Assembly: GCA_032718475.1 (NCBI GenBank)
Contig: JAUCBJ010002763.1
Location: forward strand, 13,009-77,008
Length of the DNA: 64,000 nucleotides
Origin: Nemertoderma westbladi
Taxonomy: Eukaryota; Animalia; Xenacoelomorpha
Reading direction: 5' to 3'
In this document: positions 2,699 through 55,600 of the stretch, piece by piece
Layout: the number at the start of each line of letters is the position of its first letter
Position numbering within the stretch: the first letter of the stretch is position 1
Program-made: the position numbers and the translations under genes
Notes under the pieces: model-generated
Seen by the model: only the letters and a program-made list of their open reading frames with translations
What the model was told of the DNA's origin: nothing
Database searches by the model: none

Positions 2699-3823
2699 AT
2701 TATAATACAATGGGTTACATTATATAAAAGTAAATATATATTAAATTTTTATTTCATTTCAACCACTTACAGGAGCCAAATTAGCAAAAAAGTCAGACAT
2801 TTTAAACCTATTTCAATGTGTTCAATATTTCCCTGGTACTCCTTTTTTCATAGTGATTAAATAGTATTTTATCTTATAATTTGTTAATAATATAATATAA
2901 TGTAATATATGGCTAAGAAATCATATGTTTCATATTAAATAAATTAAATATATACACAATAAAATACATCATATTATTTAAAATCGAGAACCAAATCAAA
3001 CAAGAATTTCCAAAATCATTTATCTGGTAGTGGCGGTTTTTCTATAAAATACAGCCGTAGGGCTGTACGTACACAGGTTGGAAACCTTGGGTATCCTGGT
3101 GCAATTTCTATAATGCTTTGTTTCTGTAACAGCGCCTTTGGACATCCAGCAACCACAACCACACAGTCCTCCACTACTGGTCTCCAATTATTAGCGATCC
3201 TGCATCTCTGTTGGTGGTAACCGTTTGAGACTAATTGGCCCCCAGAACGGAACGGCGGCGCACACCAGTATGCTGTGTCAGGCCTATGGGCCCATTATTA
3301 CCGGGGATATCAACGGCCAATAGGATTGCAGTTGCAGAACTGTTTGGAGAAGCAACACCAAAGTTTCCAATAGAAGGCACGAGCCCTCCTAATGTGGTCT
3401 AGTTGGGATATCTCAACTTTTTGCAGTAAATTATTGATTGTAATAGAACGCCCCACAGAGTGAATTGAAATAATTGGCAGGTTAATTCTTGGTGGAAAGT
3501 GCGATGTAACAGGTCAGCTGCTAACCTTAAAATAGTATTATCCCGAGGACCACTTGTACCCCAACTGATAGGCTCGGGGTAATCACCTTGTCCGATTATC
3601 GAGAACCTTCCGCAAAAGTTATCCTCATAGATGATCCACCTATTAATTGATCAAAATAAATGACATAACGAAATATATCTACGATTATTGAATTAGATTT
3701 ATTATGTCAATAATTATGATGTATATTATTTGCTGAATATCTTAATAATGATGGCGAATTTTTGGACATAATTATATTTAAGACATACTAATTGTAATAA
3801 TGTATGTATTAATATTATCATAT
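2699..3823. repeat. 1.1-kb segmental duplicate (copy A) of 27747-28853, containing one crystallin exon
   Basis: Direct, near-identical sequence with a few small indels. Confidence 0.95.
3526..3639 (-). CDS. Crystallin gene exon (WIIYEDNFCGRFSIIGQGDYP...RDNTIL), near-identical copy of exon 28556-28669
   Basis: Same splice sites as the other copy; phase fits after exon 6128-6282; two substitutions relative to the other copy. Confidence 0.7.
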
Positions 3824-31600: not shown

Positions 31601-34600
31601 GTAGAAGTGCCAAAACCAGCAAATATCTATCAAACTATAATGAACTGGTACATTTTATAAATTTAGCACACTTTGTGAGCAATTGCGGGAGTTGTTGCTG
31701 AAATCAAATTGAAAAATACTTTTGTTTTGTGTTATTTTTAGATCATTTAGTCACCGCGCAAGGCCAGCCAATAACAAAATAACAATTAAAACATTTTTTT
31801 AATTTTTTTATTTGCCGAAATTTGGCACCATTTTCTAAATTTCGCGCACTTTGTGCGTAATTTCAGATAGTAATCATGTAAGTCAAATTTAAACATTTTC
31901 TGTGTATTTTCTCTGTTTTGTAACCATTTTGCCACTTTGCACACCCAGCCGACTCAATTTGGAAAAAAAATGATTTTTCGACCCGCCCTAAAGTATAGTG
32001 TTTTATCTTATTAGTACATTTTATTTTATAGATTAATTTTATTATATGAATGGATCACCTTCCACATTCCACTTTTATACTGGACACAGCGTTGCCAGTT
32101 TTAGTTCTGTCGAAAGTTCCCTCATCTGTGTCGCCATTTACAGTCATTTTGTATCCCTGGAAGTTTCGATCTGTGTAGAGAGTTATTTTTGGACTCGGGC
32201 AATCGCCAGACACTTCCTTCTCCAGAAGTTTTATTGAAGAAACAGCATCCCTTCCCGGTGGGTAGAAAGCGTCCCAATATGGGTAGTACCCAGGGTTGAG
32301 TATTATTCTAGGTCCACTGAATGTGTCACTGAATAAAATTGAGAATATTAACAAAAATCTAGTTATTCCAATATTTAAATTCTTACATGGAACAATTTTT
32401 GCCAAGGTTTGAACATAGCTGCATACCTTTTTTTCCCTAACTGTAAACTAGGTAGTCCTAGTAACCAACCACCTACACAACCTATGCTCGACTAACCTAA
32501 CCATCTAATGTGTCACAATATCAGAAACAAAGTGACTTACTCTAATCGACTATGAGATTTTCAATTTTCAAAAAATTTGAAAGTTACAATTTTCAGCTTA
32601 TCTTTTTTCAATACAGGTTTCCTGGGGCGCTGAATCCATTGGAAGTTATTTAAAAATGATATGATTACTATATAAGGCCGTTTTAGTCCTCTACATAGGC
32701 AAAAAATGAAAAAAAAATAAGTAACCAGTACATTTCAGTTTGAAAACAAATATTTTAATGACATATACGAAGATATAAATTCACATTTTCAGGTTTTCTG
32801 GGTAGCTGATTCTAATTAATACATTTATAATTTCCCAAATCATTGCTACTCGTATTTTTAGGCGTAATATGGCATGTTTTGGTGCTAGCACCAAATTTCT
32901 TACCCATAACCAAAAATTACAACTTTGAGATGTCCAGTGCTGTTTTTATTGATTCAATCGGATTCAGGACCCTCAAAAACTCGTATCACGCAAGAAACAA
33001 GATGATATTATCTATTGATCAAATTTGCTAATCTATTAATCAAAATTACAAATTTATCACACAACAACGCTGAAATATACAAGCAAATTTGAGAACAGTT
33101 ATGTAATTTTTACTTATTCCACTGAATTCATATCCTTTTGTTGCACACGCTAACTGCATGTCGAAATCTTATATTTTTATCGGAGAACTATTCAACTTCT
33201 GTGCGCATAATATTCGTCTCAAATCCATGTTGTATATCACTGTTAAGATTGTTTGTCCGTTGCCCAGCATCGGTTGCCGTAATCCTAAAGCTCCTATTGC
33301 ATTGGTTGCCATACTTTACAATACTTATACTTATACCTATATACTTACTGTAATTGATTGTACATTCAGACCAGATATATATATTAGATAATTATATAGT
33401 CTAGTGTAGAACGAAAAATATAGACAGAGCAATCAATATCAAGCAATAAAAATAAAATGTATACGATATTTCAAGTCAGCGTGACTCTTATTCATGTATT
33501 ATTCTTAAATTCGAATTAATTTTCTAGAACAAATAAATAATTGAAATACTGTCTAAATACCCTAGGTAACAACATAAATATAAAGTTTTAAACTTCTTGA
33601 AGAAAACCTGTGTAGCCATGTAAATTTTCGGTTGCTTCATTAATTGTGTTTATTCCGTATGGTTCCAAGGGCTGCAGTGTGCACTGGTAGTAACCCTCCC
33701 TCTTTCTCATTTGGATTTTGAGTTCTTTTCCCTTGTATCCCTTAATACTATCTATCGATGTTATATGAAAATCTTCCGATGAATGTCCGTTGCTTGTCTG
33801 CTTCTTTTTGTTTGCAATCTGTGTTTTATAATTAGCAATTCTAGCTTTAAAATTAATTGCAGAACCCACCGCTTGTTTATTACATCTAGAACATGATACA
33901 AGGTAAATTACATTCGTACTCTTGCAGTTCAAATTTTCTGTTATAGGAATTCTTCTCCGCTGGTCCCCCGATTTTGAAGAAACAAATTCCATTTATTTGG
34001 AAGAGACGTACCTAATACCTGCAATATCCTACTGTAAAGTTTGTGAATCAAATCATAATCCGACCTTCTCACCAAAACAGTAAACTCTAAGTAAGCGAAT
34101 ATATATTGCAGTATCGGTCTCTTATAACCGGTGAGGCAGAAAACAGTCTACGAACGGACAAACTTCGATAAAACAAAATCCCGTGCAGCGAATCCTAAAA
34201 TCAGGCTGACTCGCTGACGGACTAAGGGGCTCGTATACTTTGCCGCTGACTCGCTGACGGACTAAGGGGCTCGTATACTTTGCCGCGGTGTGATTTATAT
34301 AGTTGGGATAGAGAGATGCTAGCTAGGTGCAGAGATGTCTAACTAGCGGGCAAAGTGCAGTACGGACAAAGTTAATTTTATATATTTTGAGGTGTAAATA
34401 ATTTCTAACACGCGTGTGTCTTAATTCTAAACAGTCAAAGTCAGTTTTGTTCCTTCATATATATAATTACTGGGTCCGGTGTACATTTTACAAATATTCT
34501 AATTTTATAACTTGTAGGTCCAATACTCACGAATGATAAGGCTCCTCCCCCTTTTGTGTATTTCCAGGACTCAAATTCAGGCATAAGGTTAATACTACGC

Positions 34601-37600
34601 CCAGAATTCGGCAATTTAATTTACCAGGTCCCTAATACTAAGAAGAAATGTGTTAGTTTACTACAGTAGGCGTACAATTACTAATAGCTAGCCTGGCGTT
34701 CTTATCTAGAATTTTGGTTGCCTAGATGGGTACGGCAACTTCCTAACAGAATGTTGGCGGGGACACGGTAGATGTTAGTATCCCTAAATAGCCTCAATTT
34801 ATTTTGCGCCTAGTTGTAAACTGCCCTACCGCCTGAATGGTACAATCCCAATTCAGGTAAAACACAGTAACCCTTCTGGCCTACAAGTTCAAATGCAATG
34901 GACACCGTTGTACTACAAATAGTCACAGACGCACCTGCACTTAGCAAGAGTTAGGCGTACAGTTTGCTGCACCCTACCAATGTGTATGCCTTGTACCGGT
35001 GTGCCTGCGTCCTATCTGTATACTAGTATCTCTGCCTGATCTCCTCTCCCCCCGTAGGAATATGAAGGTCTACTGCGGGTTTTCTCTGAATTAAGACAGT
35101 ACGGTCCCTAGATGTAAATTTTAGCGCACAGCGTGTCACTACCTCTACCTTCGATCTTTGGTCTTATACTTAGGTAGCAAGGCATTGAACGCTGTCTAAC
35201 CTTTCAGGCGATGGGCGAATAACTCAAGAATGATATTGCGGGTTGTCTCCTTCTACATTCCTCAGATGTTCCCGTTCACTGCTGTGGCCCGATGTTTAGC
35301 CTGCCATCCTGTCCCTCAGTTTAGTTCACCGTGGTGAAGCATGATAGGAAAACAGATGTAACAAGTATTTCTAACTTTATTACAGAATATATACATAAAC
35401 TGATACAAGAAAGTAATAGATAACTAATAAGTGATAATCTAAAGCAAGAATGATTGTATACTAAGAATATAGAAGAGATTAATAACTAATGAACAAAGTC
35501 GCACCTTTTATAGCAAATTTGTGCTGCAATCAATCGAGAAAATTCTCGATTGTTCTATGAGTTCTAATAGGTTTTTAAAGATAACTATTGGTCCAGCGAA
35601 TATATAACTTGCACGACATTGGTTACTATCTAATAACTACAATCCCATTGGTTAATCTACTTCGAGCAATTGCAATTTAATTTGTAGCGGTTAATTTAAA
35701 TGAGTTGAAACTCTGCACAAAAAATAATTCGCACCTACTAGGATTCGAACTCAATACCTACTACATATAATTTCCAACACTTTACCGACTGAGCTACTGA
35801 ACCACTTGAATAATCATCGTACAAATAGATATAGTAAATACAAATGAGGACTTAATGTAATCTTTATAGCAAAGTTAATTCGAACAAAATAAAATTTTGA
35901 AAATCCACGGCATTTAGAGGATATAATTCTATACCGCTCCATGAAAACAGGATATTATAGTGCATAAAATATACGGTTTTCACCAATACTAAATCAAATT
36001 ATGGAATACTTGGGACGTACTTACATATTTACAGATTAAATCTCAACAATAATACCTCTACATAATAATTCGATACAAAATAATTACAAATTCAAACTTT
36101 ACGTATTTAAGGCTTTATTAAGTAAGTACAATATAAATCTAAATTAAATTCACTAAAATAAATCTATTGCATCTCAAATATTGCATAAATTCAAACAATC
36201 ACAAATACTAATACTACTTAAATATAAAACAAATTGCATAAGTTCGGATAATTTCAAATAAATCACAAGAAAGGCTCACAAGTCTTCCGTCTGCTCTTGC
36301 CTTCTATTTACTGTGAATACAAATACTGCTTCTTTATAAAATATAAATTGCATAATATTCGAAACAATAAATTGCGTAAGTTTGGAATGACTACAAATAT
36401 AGCACTTTCTAAATATAAATCTTTACTAAATTGCATAAGTTTAGAATAATACTGCATAAGTTTAGAATAATACTGTATAAGTTTAGAATAATACTGCATA
36501 AGTTTAGAATAATATAAACTCCTTTGCATCTCAAATATGAAATATAAATCTTTCAAATATAAGTTCCTTCTAAATATAAACTTTCTAAATTTCATAAATT
36601 CGGAACAATACAAATACATAAATTTAGAACAAATGTAAATTGCATAAATTTAGAATAATATAAATTGCATAAATTTAGAACAATATAAATTGCATAAATT
36701 TAGAACAAATTCAATTTACATAAACAATTTGATTTACCTAAACAATGCATAAAACAATACATAAAACAAACATAAAGCAAATAATTCATAAGAAAGGCTC
36801 ACGAGTCTTCCGTCCACTCCTTCCTTCCCGCTTTAACGCTTAGCGGATCGAGCTCTGCCGCGTCCTCGAAAACTGCGTATCAGCGATTTAGCTCGTGATA
36901 TGGGACTTGTGGGGCGAGCCACTGGTTTACTTTGGATGTTGGGAGATGGTACGACCATTTCCTCACATATTCGTCTCTTAGTTATCCCAAATCCTTGTCC
37001 AATTCCTCGTGACCGATTTGTTGTATCTACCGCTGGTAAAACGTCTGGGAACGCGTGGAAAGCGGACGACGCAGACCCAAGAGAAGCTTGCGCCCCCTTT
37101 TGATCAGCTGGTATATGTCCCGATCCTCCTTGCGGTTCTCTGGGAAGCGAAACCGTATCCCGAGTAATTCGAATAGTCGGTTCGTATCCCCTTCGTTCTT
37201 CAACATTGATAGTTTTCTTTAATTGTTGGCTCACTTTCTGAACCCTTATGATCCTGTGCTGTCCGTCCTCCCGAGGGTGACGTGCAGATGGCGCGACCGG
37301 AGTAGCTGGTATGTTGGTCGCCTCTAGGACCTCCTCTTCCTCGAATACGCTCGCTCGTATACGTTTATGGTAGAACGCGGCTCGGTACGCCCATGCGACG
37401 GTTAACCAAGCTCCCTTGTTCCGCTTTTCCGTTCGGAACCGATCAAATTCACCATAGGTGATACGATTAACGACTTTCTGGAAATTCCATGTATTCTTAT
37501 TGTCAGGATGTATCTGTAACAAATATTCGCGCACAACTCGGAATCCACTATCGTGAGGCAAAATATCAACTACCTCGATGAGTTCGTCATATTGTGGCAT

Positions 37601-40600
37601 AGCGGAGATATATCCTTCCGACATCATAGTTTGAGGATTTACCGCCCAAAATCCAAGATGTGCTCTCATCGGGAACCGTCTTCTTTGCGCCGATACATGT
37701 TCGTCAGCCAAATCTTCCCAATCATCAAATAGTTTTCGCACGAGTTTTACAGATTCGTGTTCGTAAGGTATGTCTCTCAGTTGGCATTCAGATGCTCGGT
37801 GTCCCTTTATATTACAGTATGTGCATTGAGCCATAAATCTCCAGCAAGTATAAAATGTATGGGACCCTTGATCTCCACACCATCCACAAATCAGTTGAGT
37901 CGTAGTAATGTGCTTTCCACTGCACTTTGTCGAATGATGTCCAGCGGCGCCACATTTACCACACATTGTATTAGCAGGGTACCACACTCGCTCATATATA
38001 AGATCGCCAATGGGTCGAGCACTTCCTCCCACACTATAGTCATAATCATCTGGATCGATAGGTTGGTATGTTTCAGAAGGTTGTATGCAAACTACAGCAT
38101 CAGTTGCTTCTAATTGTCGAATCTCCGTCTGAGATTTCTTCAGGAGGTTCCTTTCAATCTCAAGAAGTTCCTCTAAAGGATCATCGATGGTCGTTGTTAC
38201 TTCGAAATCATCACCTAAGAGACCGATAGGCGCACGCGTCTGCCGTGATTCGTCCGTAAGCTCCACGATACGTTCTCCTTCATAAGGTAACATTGTAAAC
38301 ATAGATGGTCTTTCGATAAGAGATCCCGCACAGCGAAGATACACGTCTCGAAATATACTAAATCCTTTGCACCGAATCTTTCGAATGGCGCTGCTGCTTC
38401 CTCTTGGATATCATATCCCCATCTCGGCTCTCCATGTATCCCCTTCGCCATTATTAGAAGTATGATTACATAATCATTGCTACTAGAGGGAATACAACAG
38501 AGTTTATTGTTAGTTGTGAGGAGATGCGAGAGTTTTCGTCTGCCCTTTTGGCTCGACAACGCTCTAACCTCCTACCCATAGCCTAAGATCTAGGGTTTCT
38601 TTAATGACACGCTGTTTCTTATCTAAAATTTTTTTTTGCCGAAATAAAAACGAATTTGGGCTAAACTGGCTGTGAGTCTAAAATACTCACCTTTTGATCC
38701 CAAACTATTATCAGAAAATAAGCAATCGAGAGTTAGTAATAAATATAGGGGAGTCTATTATTTGACGTAACTTATTGAAACAAGACCGTGTAAAATTTAA
38801 TTAAAATTTAAGAAAGGCTCGCGAGTCTTCCTTTCTCTTGTTTCTCTAATTTTAAGTCCCACCCGACTGTACCCTGAAATCTATTCACTGGAGAAAATTT
38901 TAAAAATTTTTCAAATCCAAATGGATTGTCTAAAATTTCGAAAATGTCTCAATATTGTGAGTTCCAAGTAGAATTCCATTTCTTATACCTACAAATCCCG
39001 CTCCTATGTGACACATAAGGGTACGACCCTCAATGTTCACATATAAAGACAATGGAATTCTACCGCTGTCTTTACTACGGTGTACAGGTACGTGGAAATC
39101 TATTTGTAAACTCCTTACTATTTACTAACATTTGTTGGAGACTTGTAATCTCCAGACTTGTTTCGCGTCTCTTCAAGAAGTATGAGACGTTGAGTCGGTC
39201 TGTCTACTGTACGACCGTCAATTGTCCGTACAGTCACAGTTCTTGTCACTCCATCCATAGATGGATGTGTGTCTAAAATTACACCTGTTATCCAGAAGCG
39301 TCTTTTTAAATTCACTTCTGCCAACAGCACATGATCTTCCGCTCTTAAAGCGCGAGTATTTTTGTACCAAGTTGTTCTGGTAGAAATAGAGGGCAAATAA
39401 TGGTTTTGCCATATTTCCCAGAATTTGTTAGCTAGTAGTTGCGTGATTTTCCACGCTTTTCTACCGTAGCTATCGCCTTCTATTGGAATAGAAATAGGCG
39501 TTAATGTGGTCGGTGCCTGCATAAGCAGGTGTGCCGGTGTCAAAGCAAACTGGGATTGTTTGTCATCGGGTACTAATACTATTGGTCTAGTATTTAGTAT
39601 TGCCTCGATTTCAACAAACAATGTTGTCAGTTGGTCGTCTGTCAAGATGTGGTTTACTGGAATTACTTTTGCCATGGCTGTTTTTATAGATCTAATCAAT
39701 CTCTCCCAGACTCCGCCTCTCCATGGACTGTCTGGAGGATTAAACTTCCAAACAATCTTGTAAGGACGTAGTTCGTTTGAGATTTGATCATGATCTAATT
39801 TCTTAAAGGCTCTAGCAATTTCATTTCGAGCACCAACAAAGTTTGTACCTTGGTCTGAGTACAAGCATTTTACTAGTCCGCGTCTAGCGATAAATCGCCG
39901 CAATGCTAGTATAAAGGCGTTGGTGGAAAGATCCATCACACGTTCAATATGAACTGCCCTACTGGACATGCATGTGAAAATCAGTCCCCAGCGTTTCACT
40001 AGTATACGTCCACGTTTCGTATGTATGGGACCAAAGCAGTCAATTCCAGTCTCTGTGAAAGGTGGTCTGAATGCCTGTAGTCTTGCTTGTGGAAGTTCAC
40101 TCAGTTCTTGGGTACTTATTCTAGAATGTACCTTCTTACAAATAATACACATACGCGTCACTGAACTTAACGCTTTACTGGGTCTAATTAATACAAATCT
40201 TGTACGTAAGTAGGAAAGACAGTGGTGTCTTCCAGCGTGTTTCAGATGTAAATGTGCGTCCAGTATCATTGCACGTTGTAATTCGTGATGTTGTGGTATT
40301 ATTATTGGGTACCTAAAATCAGTATTAAAGTCAATGTTTTGAAGCCGAGATTTATGACAAATCAAGCCATTATAAATTATCGGACTCCAACTCAAAATTG
40401 GTGACGACTTGATTGGTTGACCTTGACTTATAGATGTGAATTCGCGCGCGAAATATCGCAATTGATAATGGCGAATTAATTTAATTTCACATCTGTCAAT
40501 CTCAGTCAATGTGAGTCGACGTGTAAAGTCGCGTTTGCCTTTAACGTACTGTACAAAACGTACAATCCACGCTAATTTTCGGCACGCGTTGGTCCAAGAA

Positions 40601-43600
40601 TCTGTCAAATTTACAATACGGTCGACGTAAGTATTTGTGACGTCATCAGGTAAGTCAATGGAGAATTTGGAAGGTTTTGATTTACTAGATGGGCCCACGA
40701 GTCCGCCGGTAGGTATTCCCTTGTTGACTGTTGATCCGTCCGGGTCTACAAGTAATTTGTCCTTCTTCGTCTTCTTACCTTGATTGTCAGTACTTTGTGT
40801 GTCGATCCCTAATGGTGGTTTTAACTCTATGGGATCACTGGGTTTCGGTAAACTTATTTTTCTGCCGATATTTATCCCAGGTCTCACCTTAGGTTGTAAG
40901 TTTGGTATGTCCCTTGAGCGTAAAGTAACACCTGTATTTACATTAGCGTAGGTACTACCCACATCTGTAATACATGAGGTTTCACTGTACTTATGGTTAA
41001 TCAAGGGTGTCAAGTTTGGTAGTTTGTCAATAGAAGGCCGCTCCAATAGGGAAACTACGGCTTTACTATGTGTCGCTACGTTACTAATGTCTGGTAGAAC
41101 ATCTTGTGAAATGTCTGGTAAAATGTTTCGCGGAACTTCCGGTGAAACGTCTAGTGACATGTCTGGCAAAATGTCTGGTTGACCGTCTAGTAACGTGTCT
41201 GGTTGACCGTCTGGCGATACGTCTGGTAACATGTCTGGTTGACCGTCTGGCGATACGTCTGGTTGAGAAAGGCTCGCAAGTCTTCCTGCCCTAACTTTGT
41301 GAGTTATATTTTTCCATTTCGCCTTTGGTTTCTTCTTAAGTTTCGCCGTTGTCTTTTTCTTTGCTTTACCTTTCTTTGGTTTTTTAATTTCGGCGTCCTT
41401 AGGAAAAGTATTAGACTTGTTATCGTATAGTGGCGGCCAATGTTGTGTTGCTCTTTGTAAGAATTGTGGTCCGTGTTGCCAAAATTTCTTGTTTTCCGGT
41501 TTACAGAATTCTTCAGGCATCATTCCTCGCGACGCAATATCAGCTGGATTTTGTGGTCCGGGACAATGTCGCCAATCTTCTTTTATTGAACGGTCAAGAA
41601 TTTCTGCACGACGGTTAGCTACGAATGTCTTGAATTCAAGTGTGTCGTTGTTTATATAAAATAAAACTAACGTCGCGTCAGTCCAATAAAATATCTGTAA
41701 ACTTGACTGTAGTTCAGTCTGTATGAGGTTTACAATTGTCGTTGACAGAGTTGCGGCTTGTAGCTCAGCGCGTGGTGTCGTCATGTACTTAGTAGGCATT
41801 GTTTTAGCCTTAGAAGTAATGAGCGAAACATCAAACTCGTCTGAGTCTACTTGTCTGCGCAAATACGCTGTAACACCAAAGCCGTTGTCACTGGCGTCTG
41901 AAAAACAATGTAATTCTAAGTTGTCAGGAAATGTCGTCTGTAATGGAAAGTACACCCGGGGTATGGAATAATCCTCTAGCGAAGATAATTGCGCCTCCCA
42001 AGTCTTCCATAAGACCACTTGTTCGGATGAGATTGGTTCGTCCCATGTCAGTCCATCTTTCCAAATACTGCGCATATATATTCTTGCTTGCAGTATTATT
42101 GGGCTGATGAAACCTAATGGATCGAACAGTCTGCTTAGTTTCGACAAGCAAGACCTCTTTGTCAGAGAATCCCCTTCAGCGTCCAGTTTTACTTTCACTC
42201 GAAAGTTGTCTGTGTTCGGGTCCCAAAATAGTCCCAACACCTTGGTCGTCGGCAGTGGTTCGAACTCTAAGTCAATGTCCCCACCCCCACGTTCAGTCGT
42301 TTCGAATGAATTTACTAATTCGGCACTGTTTGAGGCAAACTTAGTGAGGTTAAAACCTCCGCCTGCTAAACAGTCCCGTAATTGATGTGCTACTGTTATA
42401 GCACGTTCTACTGTGTCACAACTTTGTAATCCATCATCCACATAAAAGTCTCGTTCTACGATCCGGATTACCTCTGGGTCATACATATGTTTCTGATCCC
42501 TAGCGGTCTGTTTTAGGGCGTACATAGTGCAGTTTGGGCTGTCCCTGGCACCGAAAACGCGAACTTGCATTTGGTAAGTCGCCGGTGGTTGACTTAAGTC
42601 TCCATCCGGGTACCAGAGGAACCTCAAACTGTCTCTGTCTCGCTCTAACGCTCGCACTTGGTGAAACATCGCTTCTACGTCACAAGTAAATGCTACTTGG
42701 CGCTGACGGAAGCGCATAATCACCCCCATGAGATAATTATTCATGTTTGGTCCATCCATCAACTCACTGTTGAGAGACATTCCTTCAAACAGGGCCGCGC
42801 AGTCGTTAACTATGCGTACTTTATCAGGTTTGTCGGGGTGTCTCACGTAGTGATGTGGCAAATAGTATGTCTGGTCTGTCACAATCTCTGGGTTAGTCAT
42901 TTTGATAGCGTATCCTTTTGTTAAATACGTTTCCATCTGAGTATTGTACTGCAGATGGGCTTTCTCGTCCTTCAATAAACGTTGTCGTATTGAGTGTAAG
43001 CGTCGTAAGGCTAGCGGATAATTATTGATAAGTTTAGGGCTTTGGCTACGCCATAGCATCCCTACCTCATAATGTCCGTCTTTTGTCTGGCGGATAGTAT
43101 CTTCCATGATCTTCAAAGATTGTTTCTCTTGTTCCGACATACACGGTTCATATCTACCTGGTTCGGCTGTGTCTTGTTCCAACCACTTGATAGTTTTCTC
43201 TGTTAATTCTTTGTCTAATGTGGCTTGTTCCACTTGACAGTTCCTTAATGCGTCGTCATCGATATCGACGGGCATCACTAATGTTATTGGTGTAGATAGA
43301 CTCGCAAGCCTTCCGGCGTTATCATCTGTCGTCGATGGAACCTCTGCCTGACTCCGCTTCTTCTCAATCTCTATACTAACCTTGTGGATAGGCTGCTTTC
43401 TGTGACTTATCGTATTAGCTACACACGTCGTACCTGTAACGTTGTCGTGTTTTGTCGAACGTAGTGTAGTATAGTCTATGTCAGGTGAAAAGGAATGAAT
43501 CGAAGTTGTAGTTAGTAAACTACATGTACTTTGTACATCGTCTTCCTCATCACTTATATCCAGTGTGCGCACAGGCGCTCGAGTATACCACCCTATCGGA

Positions 43601-46600
43601 GTTCTACAGGCGTAAGCGTTTCCCGCTACGACTACCGATGGTCTGGTTTCCCACACTTGATGTAAGTTGAATTGGTCCGTCCCGATCAGCATTGCTACCG
43701 ACCTATAGTTGACAGGACATTCAGGTACACCAAGGTGTCTGAAATACTTACGGTCCTCTAAGGATTGCTCCGGCACTGGACCCAGTAGGTTACTAAAGTC
43801 CTTGGTGGCCGCAAAAGTCAAATCCTTAAAAGGTAACAAAGACCTCTCCTTTTTGCTATGTTGCGATTTCGGAAGAAGAGTGTCCAAGTTTAACTTAACT
43901 CATGTCACTGGTATTGCACGTTGTCCATGCATACTACTTACAGTGTACTTCACGTGCTTACCTTGTCTAAGGTCCGTCACTACATCAGCTACCTTCTCAT
44001 CCACGTAGCTGTGAGATGAGGCTGAATCTAGGATAGCGTAGATCCTTTTGCTCCCTTTTGTGCCTGTAATCTTAACGGGAATTACACTAAATCCTTTTAG
44101 TTGATCAGGCGTCAGAAGAGCGATCGATGGTTGTTCGTCTCCAACTGAGTATATGTCGTCGTCTTCAGATTCTTCATCTGAAGACCCAGATTGCTCCGGA
44201 AAACAATCCCGAATATGCGTCACGAAGGTTGGTGTTGTTCTTGATTCTCGTGTTTTGTAGACAGTGTTACATTTCACTGCGGCTTCCGGGTGTTCCCTAG
44301 TGAAGCGTTTTGTCGGCGTATGGCTGTCTGTGTGGAGCAGACCGTCATGGTTGCGTCCACAGTAAGGACAGGTGTCCGTATTTGGGCAATCCTTGCGGAC
44401 ATGTCCATGTTGTGTACACCTCCAACAAGAATCTAACGGTCTTATTTGAAGCCGTCGTTCCTCTGAATTTAATTCGCGAAACAGATGACATCTCCTCAGC
44501 TGGTGATTGGTATACCGCTTATTAAGCCGCTCGCAGTATTGGCAACCGCTAAAGTCGGCATTCAGTTGTTGCCTGGTCTGTTTGATGCCAATAGGTGCAG
44601 ACACTTTACTACCGTTAGGAAATTGTCTTGTTTCTGTTGGTGTGGCGTAAGTGGCCGTCCTTGTGGATGTCGTCGGTTGTTTTTGTCTATTTGATGAAGG
44701 TAAGGTGATTCCTTCTGCTACGATGTGTTGGTCAGTGTAGTTAGATCTAGTCTCCACTACCGCTTCCCTGGATATTAATAAGTACACATCTTCCAGTTTC
44801 AAGAATCCACCTCTTTCCTCCCGCTGGTATTCGATTTTTCGCCACTCCCGACGAAGTCGATGATGTAGTCTTCCTATAATTTTTAATAGGACTGTGGGAG
44901 TGTTCCCATAATCGAGTTGTCCAATAGATCTTAGTGTAGTGATAGCGTTTTTAATTTCGTCAGCTAATTTGAGTAAGTCGACGGGTTTTGTAATAGCCCC
45001 CCCCTTACAGAGTTCCTCTATCACTGACTTGGCCATACTAACCGTACCTCCGTAGATTGAAGTTAAGCGATCGTATGCTAACTCGAAGGCATCTGGTACA
45101 TCGACAAAGGTCTCTGCCAAACGTTTGGGTTCTCCTGATAATGTTAGAAGCAGGTAATTAAACTTCTCCCTTGATGTAAAGGCGCACACAGAGATCTGAG
45201 ATTCAATATAGTCTACGAAAGTGTGCCAATGTTTGGAGCTACCGGAAAACTTAGGTGGTTGTTGCACCGGTAGTCCTTGTCTAGCTGCGAATTTAGCTAT
45301 TTCCTCGGCAACGTTCAAAGTTTCGCGTCCTGGGTTGGCAATCTGGCTGGTGTTCTCTCTTCTAGGCGCTTTTCTTTGATACGATGTGTTTCTCGACGGT
45401 ATTGTTCTTTGCGGAACTTTAGGATTTCTATTGTGTTCGAATTCGGAATTTCTCGAACTGTCGGTGTGAACTTCCTCCAAGCGTTCCTTGATCTGGGCCA
45501 ACTTGTTGACAACTGGTCTCAAAATGTCGGCAAATTGTTGGGTACTGATCGCATCCGTTGGTTGTAACGCCCTTTGTATTGGTGTATTTTGTGGAGGATT
45601 ATCGATAAATGAATTATCTGAACGCTCACGCTTACATTCGTCGGCCGCTCCTGTTCTAAATACCTCGCGTTCCGGGTAATCCGACTCGCTTGAAGTACTA
45701 CTGTCACCTGGATACGGTGGTCGACGTGCTCGTGTCCGTTGCGTCGTTCGAATTTTAACATTCCGTTTCGGAACATCGTCCGCTGGTCTCCGTTGTTCGG
45801 TAGGCTCGCAGGTCTTCCTCGAAGTCGTAGATTGCGATGTAAACTGGTTAAACTGGTTAAGCGGTCGCGTATCCACTGGTCTCCGTTGTTCGGTAGGCTC
45901 ACAAGTCTTCCTCGAAGTCGTAGATTGCGATGTAAACTGATTAAACGGTCGCGTGTCCACTGTTCTCCGTTGTTCGGTAGGCTCACAAGTCTTCCTCGAA
46001 GTCGTAGATTGCGATGTAAACTGAACCGGTGGTCGAGTGACAGCGTTTGAATCTAAAGGCCTTGTAGGCCTAAACGTCATTGGGTACGTGTAGTGCGTAA
46101 CGGGTTTTGGTGTCGAAGGTGGACTCACCTGTTTTGTCGTTAGTAGTGCAGGTCCGGTCAATAAACTACTACGATCGGTAATCGGTGGGTTACTTACCTT
46201 GACTTTCAGAATAGGCGACGACGTTGCTCTTGGTGGTATAAACTTGTCCGGAATAACAAACCTGTGTTCCATCGCACCATGGATAGGAGAAATATTACTA
46301 CTACCCGTAATCGAAACAGGTTCCTTAGTCGTAACTGGTGCAAACATAGGAGTTACTTGAGGGAATCTTTGACATAAGTCTTTAACTAATTGTCTTTCTC
46401 GCCCAGGTGCCCCTACACTTCCTTCCTTCATTCGTTCCTGAATTTGGCGGTGCCTTACCTCTATCTGGTCCAAATCATGTCCGTCACGAGATCTCATCGA
46501 TCGATCGCGGGCTAGAAGATCCAGATTTTCCTCGGCTTTGGCTAGTTCTCTCGCCTTCCTTTCGAGTTCGAAATGAAGTTTAACTTCTTTCTCGCGTTGT

Positions 46601-49600
46601 TCCGTCTGTTGTTGTTGCGCCTCGAACTCCGCTTGTCGTATAGCTGATTGAGCCTTTATTTGCCGTTTTTTCATCTCAGCTCTTGCTTCCGAAACTCGCT
46701 TGTGTTCTTCCAACTCTGCTGCTCGTTGCTCTAAATCAGCTGCTGCTGCTCGTCGCTCCAACTCAGCTGCTGTCGCTTGTTGCGCAGCTGCTGCCGCTTG
46801 TCGTTCCAACTCAGCTGCTGACGCTTGTTGCGCTAACTCAGCTGCCGCTGTTCGCTGTGCTATTTCTAACTCCAACCTTTCCATCTCAGCCGCTTCCAAC
46901 TCAGCTTGTTCTTGCAGATGAGAGATTCTCGCAACATTTGCAACGCGTAGTTTTTCTTCCTCTACCGCCGCTTGTACCGTTAACAGTTGAGTTTGTTCCT
47001 CAATTTCTCATTGTTGTCTATAGTGCTGTTGTTGCTGTCTAGAAATTTCTGACGTCACTATACTTACCTCGCCAATTTCGCTGCGAATACTCACTAACGA
47101 TTGGTCCAGTATTCCCGGTGCCGATTCGATTTGTACGGGTGAAGTTCCCCTCGTATATTCCGGCACGGTTTCCAAATCTCCGACGTCTTCGCCGCACATA
47201 CGTAAGTGATCTGTCAGATGTTTCAATTGTCCATCCGGTCGGTACAGTTCCTGTTCTTCCTCAGGCTGTAATAACTCGTCGGAAACTGACTCACCTAGCA
47301 ACTGGTCCGCTTGTTCCTGTTGTATCTGTCTAACGGTCGTCTTAAACTGAATCAGTTTCTCCCTAGCGATCATTAATTTCTCGAGGATTCTAAACTGTGT
47401 GTCCATATCCTGTCTCTGTCTAGCTAGATCTTGTAGACCAATTAGATTATCTACAGACTTATGTACTTTACTCTGTACTCTAACCTGTAGGGTGTAGAAC
47501 TCGAACCGAGACATCGGAGCGGTCAACTCGTCTAATATGCGTTGGCCTTCTCCAATACTCCTGGTAATATGCGCCATGTATCCTCCGACGCTTCTAACCA
47601 CGCTTTCCTGGCCTCCTACTGAACTTACCATGTCCGTTTCTCTATGTCTCGGTTGCGGGACCGTTAGGAAATCCTCAGTCCTGCCGTCGCCTCGTACTAC
47701 GGCATCCGGTACTCCCGTTGGATGTACTGGTGACGCGCACGGTGTAGGTTCGGTAGGCTCACGAGTCTTCCCCTGTGGTTCTTCCGCTTCTGACTTCTCC
47801 GCGTCACATGAGTCATAGTCGGTTTGTGTATTCTTCGTATAGTCTTGTTTGTCACTCATTTCGGTAGTTGTAAGTCAAGTAAAGTGAGTGTCAAAGTGTT
47901 ACGGTATATGGCGCTGTATCCACATTATTAGTCGTTATACTGTATGCAGTATTAGTCCGTTATGCAGTATGCAATATTAGTCCGTTATACTGTACGTAAT
48001 ATTAGTCCGTTGTGCAGCATGATATTTTAGATAAGGCATAATAACGCAGTGGTATTTAGGTAGGGAAATCAAAACGCCCATATATTTGAAACCATCCATT
48101 TTGTATAGTATGTAGCCCTACCTACGTAATTTTGTATTAGGATATATGTAGATAGTTCCAGGGTAGCGAGTTTATTCGGACCCTGGATTTTGTGCTTGCT
48201 GATATTAGTTTGATAGGGCTAGCATATAGGGATGCTATCCTGGCCATTCAGCAGCCAGAGACGTGAACCATTACCATATATGGTAATAATTTGAGCAATA
48301 GGGCTACAATCCGGCCTCCTTATTGGATTAACTGCTTCCAGGTTGGCCTAATGCTAGCATGGACTGGAGAGCCAATAGGAGAGCGATTGAGTCACCCTAT
48401 TGCATCATCCCATCCGGATCACCTATAAATTGGCGGTGTGCCGGTAAAGCCTCACATGACACATCGATCTGTTCAACCTGTTTTACTGTTTTTCAATCAG
48501 TCACTGCTGTTGCACTTGCTGAGCTGTCTCTAATTTTGTATTAGGATATCGTATTTTCTGCAATTTGCTAATTTGATTAATTTCTTGAAATGATTTGCTA
48601 GTGCGATTACTTGCTTGTGTTTCTCAATAATTCCTTCGATTACTGCTAATTACAATTGAACTATGATTTCTACTCTTTGATTAATGGTTCTATGTGATTC
48701 TTTTCTGCGCAATAATCCTAAGGGATTTCTGAGACTGTCAGACTTTGTGATTTGCATGCGCCGCTACGGTAGCTATTAGCATCATGGAGGGCTAAGGTGC
48801 CAGTGGGCGGTGGGCGCATCGGGGGGTTGAGCGACTAGGAGAGAGCGGAGGATTCAAAGCGGGCAACGCTGGCCAGGGTCACCGTTGCGGGCGGGTATCT
48901 TGCACTGCGGCACGCAGACCAATCGCTGGTACAGTATCTAGGGGGCTGATGATCCAGGTTTTGTCTCTATTTAGTATTAGGGGGGCAGGAATTGGGTTAG
49001 TTAGGAATCCTAGATGTACCCGGGAGAGGCCTGCGCGTATTACAACGTTGAGTGTGGAGTACGAGTAGTGAATTGCACAATTGTAAACTGTGATTTCTAA
49101 CGCTGATTGGTGTGTTATTGAAGTGTGCCTAAGATTACGAATGCTTAGATAGGCGCTCTTTTCCCTTTGATTGACTTCTATTTCTTAGCTACAATAATTA
49201 GTTATTGATTAGGTCAAAGTAATACGGCAATTTAGGCTATTACTAGCAAAACCTGTTGCGTGATAAATTAGAATTACGTATTCTGGAACTCTTAGTAATT
49301 AGTACGCTGTTAAATATTTGTGACTGTAATTAATTAGTAAAAATTAAGAATTAGTACGCAGCATAGCGGAGAGTAGCTAAGGTAATAATTAGTGTACTGT
49401 AAACTATTCACGCTAAGCGGTTATTTGTATTAGCGGGCAATCAGCTAGAACGCACTATTCGGTACGCACGATACGCTAGTAGTTTTGCTGGCCTAAAGCC
49501 AGCCGCGGGCAGTTTTAGACTCGGGGTGGTATTATCCACGTAGAAACAGTTACTGTACCATTTTGATAATTTTAAATATTCTCGCATTCACACATTACGT

Positions 49601-52600
49601 TAGGGAACCTCCAGTATTCGCGATTAGAAAGACGTAGGTAATAGCGTGCTTTAATAGTGATAAAATTAGGCGTAAGAATACTCTGAGTGCAAGGCCTCTC
49701 GCACTCGTCTTAAGTAAGCTTAGGGAGCCGACTCGGGTTTATTGTTTTGGTTATTCCTGCGTGGCTCATAGATTCGAACAGTTAGCTCTCTATCGAGCAA
49801 TCGGTAGAGAAAGGAACAAGCGATTTTGCAGGAGTTGTGTAAATTTAGTAAAATATATTAGTGGACGGCAGATTAGTGCCATCCAATGGTAAGTAGCGGT
49901 TTTGTATTTAGCAACCCTTACAATTTAGTAATAGCACGCTCCTGATCCCCTTTACTTAACAGTAGAGCAGTTTTTGTGTCTTATTGGATAGGCGAGAGCT
50001 TATTAGGTTGGCAGAAGGATATTAACGGGTATTGGTCTGTTCAACAGTTCTGCTGTTAGTATAGAGGTCGCGGTTGTTTATCACAAAGTGTCAAACTTAC
50101 CGTATTTATATCAAAACGGTATTAATTACAGTCATATAAAATTAGCCTACCGGCCGATTTTATAGCAGATGGATAAAATTAGCCTCGCGGCCAATTTTAC
50201 AGCAAATAAATGTCACGGAGTAAGTATATAATAAAATTAGCCTACCGGCCAATTTTACAACAAATAAATCAGATAACGATATACGTTATCAAAAGGTAGA
50301 TTAAATACAATAATACGGACTAATTCAGCAATAAACAAAGAAATCATACGGAATGCATAAATACTTGAGACAGTGGAACCCACAATAATTTTAACTAATA
50401 CGGTAATGCCTAACTTATTTATGCAACTTTTCGAACTCACCCCTCCAATGATTCTCCAGAAAAACAGATTCCCAGATACAAACCGGACGTGAACCTTTCC
50501 GTTTCCAGCGTTGCGGACGAAGTGCGATTTTCCCAACCAAAGTTGTTGAGTTATCTATCTCCCAAACTTGCTAAACACGGTCTTGCTCTCGTTACAGTCT
50601 AGAAATGAGCTCTGAATCCTGAAAAACAAAAGAGTTAGGTTTTACTTTACGAAAATTTTGTACCGGTACAATATGGTATTTAAACCCTTTTAAACACCGG
50701 TATTCAATTCCAAAATATTTTACACGCGGTTCAAATCAAAATTTTATTTCAAAATTAGCACTTAGCTAATCAAATATAAACTTTTACCTCAAAATACAAA
50801 ATTTTCAAATAACTTTAGTCCTACCGAACCGTAGTTCAGTAAAACATATTCCTACTAATTTAGGAAATATGTTAAATAATACACATATTCCTACTATTTG
50901 GAAGAGACGTACCTAATACCTGTAATATCCTACTGTAAAGTTTGTGAATCAAATCATAATCCGACCTTCTCACCAAAACAGTAAACTCTAAGTAAGCGAA
51001 TATATATTGCAGTATCGGTCTCTTATAACCGGTGAGGCAGAAAACAGTCTACGAACGGACAAACTTCGATAAAACAAAATCCCGCGCAGCGAATCCTAAA
51101 ATCAGGCTGACTCGCTGACGGACTAAGGGGCTCGTATACTTTGCCGCGGTGTGATTTATATAGTTGGGATAGAGAGATGCTAGCTAGGTGCAGAGATGTC
51201 TAACTAGCGGGCAAAGCGCAGTACGGACAAAGTTAATTTTATATATTTTGAGGTGTAAATAATTTCTAACACGCGTGTGTCTTAATTCTAAACAGTCAAA
51301 GTCAGCTTTGCTCCTTCATATATATAATTACTGGGTCCGGTGTACATTTTACAAATATTCTAATTTTATAACTTGTAGGTCCAATACTCACGAATGATAA
51401 GGCTCCTCCCCCTTTTGTATATTTCCAGGACTCAAATTCAGGCATAAGGTTAATACTACGCCCAGAATTCGGCAATTTAATTTACCAGGTCCCTAATACT
51501 AAGAAGAAATGTGTTAGTTTACTACAGTAGGCGTACAATTACTAATAGCTAGCCTGGCGTTCTTATCTAGAATTTTGGTTGCCTAGATATGCACGGCAAC
51601 TTCCTAACAGAATGTTGGCGGGGACACGGTAGATGTTAGTATCCCTAAATAGCCTCAATTTATTTTGCGCCTAGTTGTAAACTGCCCTACCGCCTGAACG
51701 GTACAATCCCAATTCAGGTAAAACACAGTAACCCTTCTGGCCTACAAGTTCAAATGCAATGGACACCGTTGTACTACAAATAGTCACAGACGCACCTGCA
51801 CTTAGCAAGAGTTAGGCGTACAGTTTGCTGCACCCTACCAATGTGTATGCCTTGTACCGGTGTGCCTGCGTCCTATCTGTATACTAGTATCTCTGTCTGA
51901 TCTCCTCTCCCCCCGTAGGAATATGAAGGTCTACTGCGGGTTTTCTCTGAATTAAGACAGTACGGTCCCTAGATGTAAATTTTAGCGCACAGCGTGTCAC
52001 TACCTCTACCTTCGATCTTTGGTCTTATACTTAGGTAGCAAGGCATTGAACGCTGTCTAACCTTTCAGGCGATGGGCGAATAACTCAAGAATGATATTGC
52101 GGGTTGTCTCCTTCTACATCCCTCAGATGTTCCCGTTCACTGCTGTGGCCCGATGTTTAGCCTGCCATCCTGTCCCTCAGTTTAGTTCACCGTGGTGAAG
52201 CATGATAGGAAAACAGATGTAACAAGTATTTCTAACTTTATTACAGAATATATACATAAACTGATACAAGAAACTAATAGATAACTAATAAGTGATAATC
52301 TAAAGCAAGAATGATTGTATACTAAGAATATAGAAGAGATTAATAACTAATGAACAAAGTCGCACCTTTTATAGCAAATTTGTGCTGCAATCAATCGAGA
52401 AAATTCTCGATTGTTCTATGAGTTCTAATAGGTTTTTAAAGATAACTATTGGTCCAGCGAATATATAACTTGCACGACATTGGTTACTATCTAATAACTA
52501 CAATCCCATTGGTTAATCTACTTCGAGCAATTGCAATTTAATTTGTAGCGGTTAATTTAAATGAGTTGAAACTCTGCACAAAAAATAATTCGCACCTACT

Positions 52601-55600
52601 AGGATTCGAACTCAATACCTACTACATATAATTTCCAACGCTTTACCGACTGAGCTACTGAACCACTTGAATAATCATTGTACAAATAGATATAGTAAAT
52701 ACAAATGAGGACTTAATGTAATCTTTATAGCAAAGTTAATTCGAACAAAATAAAATTTTGAAAATCCACGGCATTTAGAGGATATAATTCTATACCATTG
52801 GTTCAATTTTGTCACAATAAACGCAGTTGTTTCAAGGAAAGGCACCCCCATCTATATATATATATATATTATATTTATGTTGTTACCTAGGGTATTTATA
52901 CAGTATTTCAATTATTTATTTGTTCTAGAAAATTAATTTGAATTTAAGAATAATACATGAATAAGAGTCACACAGACTCGAAATATCGTATACATTTTAT
53001 TTTTATTGCTTGATATTGGTCTGTCTATATTTTTCGTTCTACACTTTGAGAGACCGGATCATGCTGAACATGGTTGTTTGAAAAAACGTCCCTATTACTT
53101 GATTTAATTATTAGATAATATATATATATACATAAACTTTTGTGAGTGTTTTGCTATGTGGCAGGTACCCCAAGGCACTTGATAGCACTTATAAGAGTTA
53201 CAAACGAACTCACTTTGCAGCGGATGTGGGGTCAGCCTCCCGTAAAAGCCAAAGAAGAAGACAGTGAAATATCAGTTTCCAACACTGCCCCCAAGACAGT
53301 GTTCACACCCCCCCCCACGTGAAACGTAAAGTTGCAAAACAGGGAGATCGTTATTGATAAAAGATAATATAGACAATCCTGCGACTTATTTGGTATGATA
53401 CTGATTGTTTGGTTTGATGTGTTATAGTAACATTGTAATAACATTTGTGAATTCTGTTGTGCAGCATTGTGCGAGTGCAACTATTGCAGGTGCATTTCCA
53501 TGTGAATTGTTGATTAAGTCAGAGAGTTTACTTGTGTGACTGTGGTTTAATTTGACATTATTAGTCGTACGTTTGCGAAGCCAGTAGAACATAAGGCTGA
53601 TACCCCCGATGGAGTGTATAGGCAATCACTGCGTACGAAATGGCTAATTACCTATAATTTACTACATTAATTACTGTAGCTTAATAATTTAGTCAGCGTT
53701 TGTATGGTATGTCACGGACAGTCGGACACTATTATCAAAATTGTATTACCCTTCCGGTCTTTATTTATTAAGTAATCTAAGTAACCTGGTATTTTATCGT
53801 TTTACTGTACATACACCCTACACTTACATTTTGTTGTTTATTATTATAAACTTGTAACATAGTGTTACAACCCCCAAATATCGTAAGTACGTTCTATTAT
53901 CTACATACAGAAATAATTAATTCTTACATCTTTCTTCAGGCCATTGAACTGTTTATTTAACAGGCAGACACAGGCCCGATATTTGACATATATTAATCCT
54001 TGTATTTAGATCAATGGAACGGAATCCTACACTAATTTCATTCTGAACATAACCATTTGTTTGGATTACAGGCGACTTCAGACTTACATATTTATTCATA
54101 ACAATATTATTTGCAGAAATAATCTCGGCAGTATTTGTGCTTAGGATTTGAAATAAGCCTTGCACATTAATAGGTGCCCGTGCTTTATTGCGACTTGCAA
54201 CTTAATTTCATCCCAAGGTGATTTACATCTTGCCCCACAACGACATACCATTCCAGACAATTTGTCGCTGAGTGCTTCAACTCAGCCATATACTTACTAT
54301 AAATCAGGAGACTAAACTGCTTTGTTTGACCTACTTAGTCGCGACATACAAATTCCCCTACCATATATTAGTGCTGTTTACTTCCATTGAGTGTTGAGAC
54401 ATGATACACCTCCACAGCCGACAACATACAATAGCGTGGCTCAACATTTCCCATACCTATTGACTCTGTGTGGCGTAATTGCTTGCCCAGTTCGTGGAAT
54501 TCAGAGTGTCAACTCCTTCCTATTAAACAGTAGTCCATAGCAACATTCTTTGGATAGTATCACTGAGTTGATGATAACAGATGACATTCACTCGGATTAC
54601 AGTAGACAGCGACTACTAGCGGTAAAACAAGAATTGTAAAAGCACTTTAATGATACTTGTTACTCCCGTTCTCTTTGAAAGGCATTTCTTAATTTATTTG
54701 AGATAAAGCCACCCAGGGGGAGCAAAGAGTATTACATTCTCAATAATAGCCAAATTATTCATTTCTCTAGGAGGTGCAAATAGAATATCTTCTTTGGTGA
54801 TTAATTATTTATTTTATAGAACAAATACGTAGTTAACACGTCTGTATACATACACACGTATATATATGCACACGCTAACTGCATGTCGAAATCTTATATT
54901 TTTTATCAGAGAACTGTTCAACTTCTGTGCTCATAATATTTGTCTCAAATCCATGTTGTATATCACTGTTAAGATTGTTTGCATCGATTGCCAGCATCGG
55001 TTGCTGTAATCCTAAAGCTCCTATTGGTTGCCATACTTTACAATGTTATTGCTCCCTATTGGCTGTTTCTATTCTTACAGTGCTATAATAGTTGATGTTG
55101 CTATCGCTATCCTCAGGCGTAACCTCATAAGATCTTAAGCCTGTTGCGAGTCATGTAACTAGAAGGACCTATGATATTTCACCTTGCGTGCTGCATGCAT
55201 TGTATCTTGCTTGCTTGCTTATTGCATTGCATCATTAACTTGCTGTGCGTATTAAATATTATCGTTATAGTTATTATTATTGCTTTAACTTGTTGATGAA
55301 TATACAAGACCAAGGATCACACCAACTTGATTTCCACACAGTTAGTGCTGGCTGTGCCCTGTCTGTAATAGATTCGGTTCATTTAGTGCGAGAGTGTGCG
55401 TCCATAGTACTGCAATATTATTCCCCAACTCGTAACTATAATCTATTGATACTATGATGCGAACAGCACGAGTGAACTTTGCGCTTACCACTGTTAGCGA
55501 ATTCAATTCCACTAACCACCCCATAAAGTGGGAAAGAGCGCCTTTAAGCAATATTGGGGAGTACGAGGTTGATTAACAACCAACCTCGTATCACCCCCAA

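What the first reader, a model, noticed from the sequence alone, without database searches (positions are those of the whole stretch)
50815..50905. Giant BEL element with TA...TA termini and no tRNA primer-binding site: candidate self-priming system
Seen: the CCATT duplication and the restored host ORF fix the LTR ends at 5'-TATAG...AAATA-3', not TG...CA. After the 5' LTR the RNA reads G-UAGGAAUAUGU, with no TGG. UAGUAGGAAUAUGU occurs twice, 40 nt apart, with its complement ACAUAUUUCCUA between them, so two alternative hairpins are possible. An 8-bp stem with a C-UACG-G tetraloop follows. The predicted transcript 5' end, about 40 nt past the TATA box (52323-52332), reads UAUAUUCUUA and can form 10 bp (two G-U) with this site. 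Known: fission-yeast Tf1 primes from its own 5' end, whereas BEL elements are described as tRNA-primed with TG...CA ends. Inference: this lineage may prime without tRNA. The match is AT-rich and could be chance.
Basis: partly seen in the sequence, partly recalled or inferred. Interest (0 to 1): 0.78.

Follow-up and report, generated by a model that had tools for sequence, protein, structure and literature searches.

The report
Self-priming BEL retrotransposon with TA ends
An 18.8-kb jumping gene, likely of an animal, lacks the usual tRNA landing site, and the 11 bases in its place pair perfectly with a highly conserved stretch of its own terminal repeat, so it likely starts copying itself with a piece of its own RNA, as the yeast element Tf1 does.

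Summary
The element is real: an 18,801-bp BEL/Pao retrotransposon (minus strand, 33994-52794) with 1.9-kb LTRs reading TA...TA, a 5-bp target duplication and no TGG for 182 nt after the 5' LTR. It sits in a 36-nt island with no listed variant at 1% share in family contigs of two samples. Minor sister forms end in CA but keep the same non-TGG site, so TA ends are not required for it. Two distant BEL relatives show three compensatory changes between their primer site and an LTR splice junction. Self-priming is likely (about 0.8 in some form); the transcript start, the cut and the primer itself are untested, and host tRNAs could not be searched. Our paper searches found no self-priming BEL in print, but this scan has noted it before in other genomes. 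New variant of a known mechanism.

The parts
50895..52794 (-). 5' LTR, 1900 nt, TATAG...AAATA
33994..35933 (-). 3' LTR, 1940 nt, same TA...TA ends; 15 substitutions against the 5' LTR
52795..52799 (.). target-site duplication, left copy (CCATT on +)
33989..33993 (.). target-site duplication, right copy
50884..50894 (-). primer-binding site position, GTAGGAATATG, directly after the LTR with no spacer; no TGG
50845..50855 (-). second exact copy of the site, 39 nt downstream; absent as a duplicate in minor sister forms
50860..50872 (-). imperfect inverted copy that can pair with either site copy
50820..50845 (-). cUACGg hairpin, 9-12 bp
50895..50933 (-). last 39 nt of the LTR: begins with a decayed copy of the site after a CA and resembles the 39-nt unit 50894-50856
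   Evidence: 0 of 5000 shuffles; tails alone 30 of 5000
51915..51925 (-). candidate self-primer CATATTCCTAC, perfect complement of the site
51909..51944 (-). conserved 36-nt island: 19 nt, the 11-mer, six G
35054..35064 (-). same 11-mer in the 3' LTR
52366..52373 (-). TATA-box match (one of several in the LTR; function untested)
51659..51664 (-). only AATAAA downstream of the island; candidate polyadenylation signal
43900..47874 (-). gag-protease region (DUF1759, zinc knuckle, protease DSA motif), interrupted by an in-frame stop at 47008-47010 and ending at one at 43900-43902
39118..43899 (-). pol: RT (YVDD), RNase H (Peptidase_A17 region), integrase (H2C2, DDE), DUF5641; open for 1593 codons
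36833..38410 (-). extra ORF, 525 codons, three CCHC-like knuckles, no relative found
35934..35940 (-). weak polypurine-tract candidate before the 3' LTR (GGAGCGG)

Best explanation
This BEL/Pao retrotransposon carries in its LTR (51925-51915) a perfect complement of the 11 bases that follow the 5' LTR, and likely uses it as its own primer: the genomic RNA would start at or a few tens of bases before this 11-mer, fold back about 1 kb to pair it with the site, and be cut after it, likely by the element's RNase H, so that reverse transcriptase would extend straight into the terminal A of the LTR. Shown: the complement, its zero offset from the LTR end, its conservation, intact RT and RNase H motifs. 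Inferred: start site, pairing in vivo, the cut, the enzyme that cuts. The TA ends are a separate trait: integrase accepted them at least once (clean 5-bp duplication, TA at all four LTR ends), and CA-ended sister forms use the same site.
For: Perfect 11/11 match beginning at +1: 5 of 5000 dinucleotide shuffles of the LTR reach it at offset 0, 32 of 5000 at offsets 0-5; best duplex in the LTR at -16.1 against -8.5 for the next window. It meets the operational self-primer test of PMC6317226 (10 bp or more, starting 0-5 nt after the LTR; passages) and equals the Tf1 length of 11 (PMC7175516 passage). Family contigs (196, 253, 156 and 1 records from X1-X4): all 9 substitution rows and the 12 indel rows shown lie at 51908 or below or 51945 or above; depth peaks over the island; one 462-nt X4 contig aligns only over 51904-51939. 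Three sister end forms, two ending in CA, run directly into the same site (joints). Folds starting at 51948 or 51925 pair the 11-mer with a site copy at P about 0.9-1.0. An initiator-like match lies at 51926. The G-rich bases after the 11-mer can pair 8 bp with the U5 end, total -26.5 kcal/mol (6 of 1888 and 75 of 1882 LTR substitutes do as well), as one flanking duplex of the Tf1 'pretzel' would (bioRxiv 10.1101/2022.12.06.519325 passage). Two BEL relatives at 39-40% RT identity lack TGG and show 3 adjacent compensatory changes between site and LTR splice junction.
Against: No RNA evidence for the start site. A strong TATA match at 52373 would put the start about 420 nt upstream, and in that fold the 11-mer pairs with neither site (P 0.0); another TATA match at 51160 lies downstream of the island. 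In this copy the fold prefers the second site (0.88-0.99) over the LTR-adjacent one (0.01-0.09), which would lengthen the LTR by 39 nt, yet the 3' LTR ends at the first. The flanking 8-bp helix is absent from the full-length minimum-energy fold, where the U5 end pairs locally. The island runs 19 nt upstream of the 11-mer, and neither its extra pairing with the leader (1692 of 5000, 699 of 1881, 3096 of 5000) nor its own hairpin (27 of 200) beats chance. No compensatory change was seen in this family itself; 2 indel rows were not shown; variants under 1% are not listed; X1 and X2 are one sample and may be the window's source. A variant-free 36-nt stretch alone is modest evidence at about 6% variable places (154-173 places at 5% share in 2701 nt). 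Folds of 1.1-1.6 kb are unreliable.
Confidence: 0.6

Rival explanations
1. The same 11-mer is the primer's 3' end, but the primer is long or made separately: the RNA starts near 52345 (TATA 52373), perhaps spliced into the acceptor-like site at 51947, or an LTR-driven short RNA acts in trans, and it is cut after 51915.
For: TATAAAAG at 52373, acceptor-like match at 51947 three bases before the island; 19 conserved bases upstream of the 11-mer; relatives L002/L004 have an intron in the LTR.
Against: No GT[AG]AG donor upstream of the island; the unspliced RNA from 52348 does not pair the 11-mer with the site.
Confidence: 0.2
2. A host tRNA half or other small host RNA primes, and the LTR complement is a structural or regulatory pairing (or a promoter motif).
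For: Half-tRNA primers without a 3' CCA are described for some Copia lineages (PMC6317226 passages); ICTV describes belpaovirids as tRNA-primed (PMC8742986 whole text). The host tRNA set could not be searched: no genome is held, none in the window.
Against: It needs a second perfect complement to exist beside the element's own, which is already a 1-in-150 to 1-in-1000 match, conserved, and at zero offset; compensation in relatives follows the LTR.
Confidence: 0.12
3. The match is chance and the island is conserved for an unrelated reason.
For: 32 of 5000 shuffles reach 11 nt when offsets 0-5 are allowed; many elements are screened in this scan.
Against: Exact +1 start, conservation centred on the match, same site after three different LTR ends.
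Confidence: 0.05
4. The first reader's UAUAUUCUUA (52332-52323) is the primer.
For: 10 bp with two G-U, 40 nt after a TATA match.
Against: Background energy; lowest-depth, variable part of the LTR; pairing probability 0.0; 40 nt is further than the usual 25-31 (recalled).
Confidence: 0.03

Closest known systems
Tf1 and the Tf1/sushi group (Ty3/gypsy chromoviruses)
   Same: 11-nt complement in the 5' LTR of a site next to the LTR; no tRNA site; one possible flanking duplex.
   Different: BEL/Pao proteins, no chromodomain found by Pfam; about 1 kb loop; LTR ends in TA, whereas the fission-yeast elements always end in CA; primer not shown to be at the RNA 5' end.
Belpaoviridae / BEL-Pao (ICTV profile PMC8742986; survey PMC3118150)
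   Same: DUF1759, Peptidase_A17, integrase, DUF5641 in PR-RT-RH-IN order; best protein matches 39-46% to BEL-type polyproteins, named ones mostly from corals, molluscs and echinoderms.
   Different: No 18-nt tRNA-Arg/Gly site; 18.8 kb and 1.9-kb LTR exceed the ICTV ranges (4.2-10 kb, 0.2-1.2 kb) but not the survey maxima; TA...TA; extra zinc-knuckle ORF.
Plant TAR (Copia) and Tcn1 lineages, predicted self-primers (PMC6317226)
   Same: Same computational criterion met.
   Different: Other superfamilies and hosts.
AtRE1 (TA...TA) and TARE1 (TA...CA), as cited in bioRxiv 10.1101/137141
   Same: Non-canonical TA ends exist in print (passage).
   Different: Plant elements; that survey covered plant genomes only.

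Membership tests
BEL/Pao (Belpaoviridae) | BEL-type gag and pol domains in PR-RT-RH-IN order | tested here: met
BEL/Pao (Belpaoviridae) | two LTRs with target-site duplication | tested here: met
BEL/Pao (Belpaoviridae) | RT tree position among named clades (Sinbad, Suzu, Dan ...) | not tested
   no named reference proteins among the 120 hits listed
BEL/Pao (Belpaoviridae) | 18-nt site for the 3' end of tRNA-Arg or tRNA-Gly (ICTV profile) | tested here: not met
   first TGG at +183; hence filed as a variant of the lineage, not a typical member
BEL/Pao (Belpaoviridae) | LTR 0.2-1.2 kb, genome 4.2-10 kb (ICTV profile) | tested here: not met
   1.9 kb and 18.8 kb; within survey maxima of 2.4 and 22.8 kb
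BEL/Pao (Belpaoviridae) | polypurine tract of about 10 nt before the 3' LTR | tested here: inconclusive
   only GGAGCGG
Tf1/sushi group | Ty3/gypsy chromovirus proteins | tested here: not met
   BEL domains, no chromodomain hit; not a member
Tf1-type self-priming (mechanism) | 10 bp or more of complement in the 5' LTR to a site 0-5 nt after it | tested here: met
   11 of 11 at offset 0
Tf1-type self-priming (mechanism) | primer is the 5' end of the RNA | not testable with these tools
   only contigs were served, no RNA holder on record
Tf1-type self-priming (mechanism) | three-duplex pretzel structure | tested here: inconclusive
   central duplex yes; one flanking helix possible but not in the full fold; leader prefers its own hairpin
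Tf1-type self-priming (mechanism) | RNase H cut after the primer | not testable with these tools
   RNase H motifs present; activity untested

The most novel reading that the evidence does not exclude
A BEL/Pao lineage evolved Tf1-like self-priming on its own, and because the primer and not a tRNA spacer sets the LTR end, the end creeps in 39-nt steps: an old primer site behind a CA (50933) was absorbed into U5, the present end has drifted to TA, and the duplicate at 50855 is the next step caught in progress, again behind a TA.
Probability: 0.25. Interest if true: 0.75.

Novelty: new variant of a known kind. Interest (0 to 1): 0.6.

Why it matters
The ICTV profile describes all BEL/Pao elements as tRNA-primed, and self-priming is described for Tf1/sushi, Tcn1 and TAR elements. 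A high-copy animal BEL family with a defined 11-nt self-primer would make it a third superfamily, give a testable substrate, and mean that tRNA-fragment silencing at the primer site would not reach it (inference). TA ends and a missing TGG also make such families easy to miss for annotation tools that expect TG...CA.

Tried and rejected
No whole genome is held, so sister copies and host tRNAs could not be read directly. No RNA holder listed; X5 is only guessed RNA, has 12 records, and was not used for start sites. Single-protein locus searches: 0 loci in viral contigs, 1 weak 1276-nt locus (27%) in metagenomes, 0 in genomes; alignment search: 0 in viral, 5 in genome contigs, of which 2 were informative, 1 (L006) gave no clear complement (9 nt at offset 5) and 2 (L003, L005) had no resolvable LTR end. 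Island pattern in viral contigs: 0. Rfam: 0 matches in 50300-53000 at E 1 and in 52540-52720 at E 10, so no ribozyme or tRNA family support. Top hits P0001 and P0002 are internally repeated predictions, not close relatives. Extended pairing of the island's upstream 19 nt and the island's hairpin do not beat chance. The second BEL element in the window has a rearranged 5' junction and gave no control. PMC554778 and PMC8556966 hold none of the primer-site terms searched. TG-start readings of the LTR were rejected because the 3' LTR has C there.

Full report
Anatomy. Self-comparison shows one 1.9-kb direct repeat 16.9 kb apart. On the minus strand the element runs 52794-33994 (18,801 bp), with LTRs of 1900 and 1940 nt that differ by 15 substitutions and 40 gap columns, and CCATT on both sides. 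Pfam finds DUF1759, Peptidase_A17, integrase H2C2 and DUF5641; RT, RNase H and integrase motifs are present. The gag-pol frame has TGA stops at 47008-47010 and 43900-43902. Of 7987 candidates scored, the 120 listed are BEL-type polyproteins at about 39-46% identity, the named ones mostly from marine invertebrates; no close relative is held. An animal host is inferred from that and from the ICTV host range (PMC8742986, whole text). The size is above the ICTV range but under the maxima of a published survey (PMC3118150 passages and supplement 9).

Ends. All four LTR ends read TA. The right end is fixed by the duplication and by the point where the two LTRs part. The left end is ambiguous by two bases because GG precedes both LTRs; the 5-bp reading gives TA...TA, and no reading gives TG in both. 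TA at the two inner ends as well as the outer ones means the trait was likely inherited through reverse transcription, and integration with these ends left a clean duplication (inference). Contigs of the family show three other end forms joined directly to a single copy of the site: two end in CA (summed depth 98-130 in X1-X3; 242 in X1) and one in AA (28-30 in X2, X3), against 27,000-88,000 in that bin (tables 2, 5, 5c; my reading of the joints). So CA ends exist as minor forms and share the non-TGG site. Whether TA is the family majority is open: 166 variant rows were not shown. TA...TA is in print for the plant element AtRE1 (bioRxiv 10.1101/137141 passages).

Leader. The last 39 nt of the LTR begin with a decayed copy of the site behind a CA (50933) and align with the next 39-nt unit (score reached by 0 of 5000 shuffles; tails alone 30 of 5000; control against the third unit 4387 of 5000). 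Three site-like heads at an exact 39-nt period suggest that the LTR end has moved or been duplicated by mis-priming or mis-annealing; this is inference.

The primer. A search for perfect complements found CATATTCCTAC at 51925-51915 and 35064-35054, matching bases +1 to +11 and stopping there. Shuffles reach this in 5 of 5000 cases at offset 0 and 32 of 5000 at offsets 0-5. Laying contigs on 51865-51985 at 80% likeness and 1% share gave 9 substitution rows and 14 indel rows, 12 shown; none shown falls in 51909-51944, depth there is several times that of the flanks (partly an edge effect), and a diverged X4 contig aligns only over the island with 1 other letter at an unlisted place. These are two informative samples from two studies plus one contig; one may be the window's source; depth is not copy number.

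How it likely works. As in Tf1, where the first 11 bases pair with the site and RNase H cuts between 11 and 12 (PMC7175516 passage), the RNA would pair the 11-mer with the site, be cut after it and be extended into U5. Folds from 51948 or 51925 give that pairing at P about 0.9-1.0, mostly with the second site; a fold from the TATA-predicted start 52348 gives 0.0. For strand transfer the poly(A) site must lie downstream of the island, and AATAAA at 51664 fits; the other, at 52242, is in the low-depth segment. The Tf1 structure has two more duplexes (bioRxiv 10.1101/2022.12.06.519325 passages; its supplements are closed): one is possible here between the G-rich bases after the 11-mer and the U5 end (6 of 1888, 75 of 1882) but is not in the full fold; the other was not found. 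Unexplained: why 19 bases upstream of the 11-mer are conserved (promoter, splice acceptor or structure; pairing tests were negative), and why the 3' LTR ends at the first site if the second is preferred.

Relatives. An alignment of 34 sequences (33 of the 120 listed hits plus the query) fetched 5 loci. In 2 of 5 (L002, L004) the LTR ends in ACA, no TGG follows for 75 nt, and the site pairs with an exon junction across a homologous intron, with three adjacent bases changed on both sides; I looked for split complements because earlier scan notes proposed them. One locus gave no clear complement and two had no usable LTR end. This supports self-priming within BEL/Pao but with another layout; it is two elements and possibly one event.

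Novelty. Paper searches for self-priming with BEL/Pao terms (listings, with passages read in PMC6317226, PMC7175516, PMC3601003, PMC3118150) turned up no description of a self-priming BEL element; the library lacks most subscription papers, including the original Tf1 and C. elegans Cer papers, so this is limited. I recall a report of a C. elegans BEL element (Cer7) encoding a tRNA-like primer; one search did not find it, so it remains a recalled lead. This scan has eight earlier unchecked notes of self-priming BEL elements in other genomes, none with look-alike DNA and none on giant TA-ended elements.

Verdict. Observation largely right, primer misidentified, inference likely right. Works like Tf1 in priming; not a Tf1/sushi member; a BEL/Pao-lineage element that departs from the family profile in primer site, ends and size. 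New variant of a known kind, interest 0.6.

Noticed in passing
L002:1001-1790 and L004:1001-1880: Two BEL elements in contigs filed under a bacterial MAG: LTR ends in ACA, no TGG; the site AGTTCAAC+GTG / +TTA pairs with the junction CAC|GTTGAACT / TAA|GTTGAACT across a homologous GTGAGT...CCAG intron in the LTR; AATAAA follows directly. Splice-built self-primer, as earlier scan notes proposed for other DNA.
   Followed up: partly
window 52575-52672 (-) and the 3' LTR equivalent: tRNA-like A-box and B-box matches (consensus recalled) followed by a T run inside U3; no ARAGORN or Rfam match; not among the best partners of the primer site. Possible decayed SINE head or Pol III promoter.
   Followed up: partly
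window 36833-38410 (-): Extra ORF after pol with three CCHC-like knuckles; no hit among 7999 candidates; Atlas leads under 0.9 to zinc-knuckle proteins.
   Followed up: partly
window 55492-60763 (+): Second BEL/Pao element, about 500-nt LTRs starting TG, 34% identity to the first over 330 aligned residues; its 5' LTR runs directly into pol sequence, so it is internally deleted.
   Followed up: partly
window 33603-33992 and 52796-52834 (-): Insertion target is a GIY-YIG endonuclease relic whose frame continues across the insertion.
   Followed up: partly
window 2699-3823 and 27747-28853: 1.1-kb direct repeat, 95% alike, 25 kb apart; a Ulp1-type peptidase ORF (1652-2677, E 3e-16) lies beside the first copy.
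   Followed up: no
window 29115-31983: Nested inverted repeats (29115-29496 with 31603-31983; palindrome 29922-31036).
   Followed up: no
window 41090-41269 and 45756-46016: 12-nt and about 90-nt tandem expansions inside pol and gag that keep the frame.
   Followed up: no
window 50845-50876: Run X2 lists letters between 50876 and 50845 at depth 457, a go-back that suggests further copies of the site unit in other family members (table 5c).
   Followed up: no
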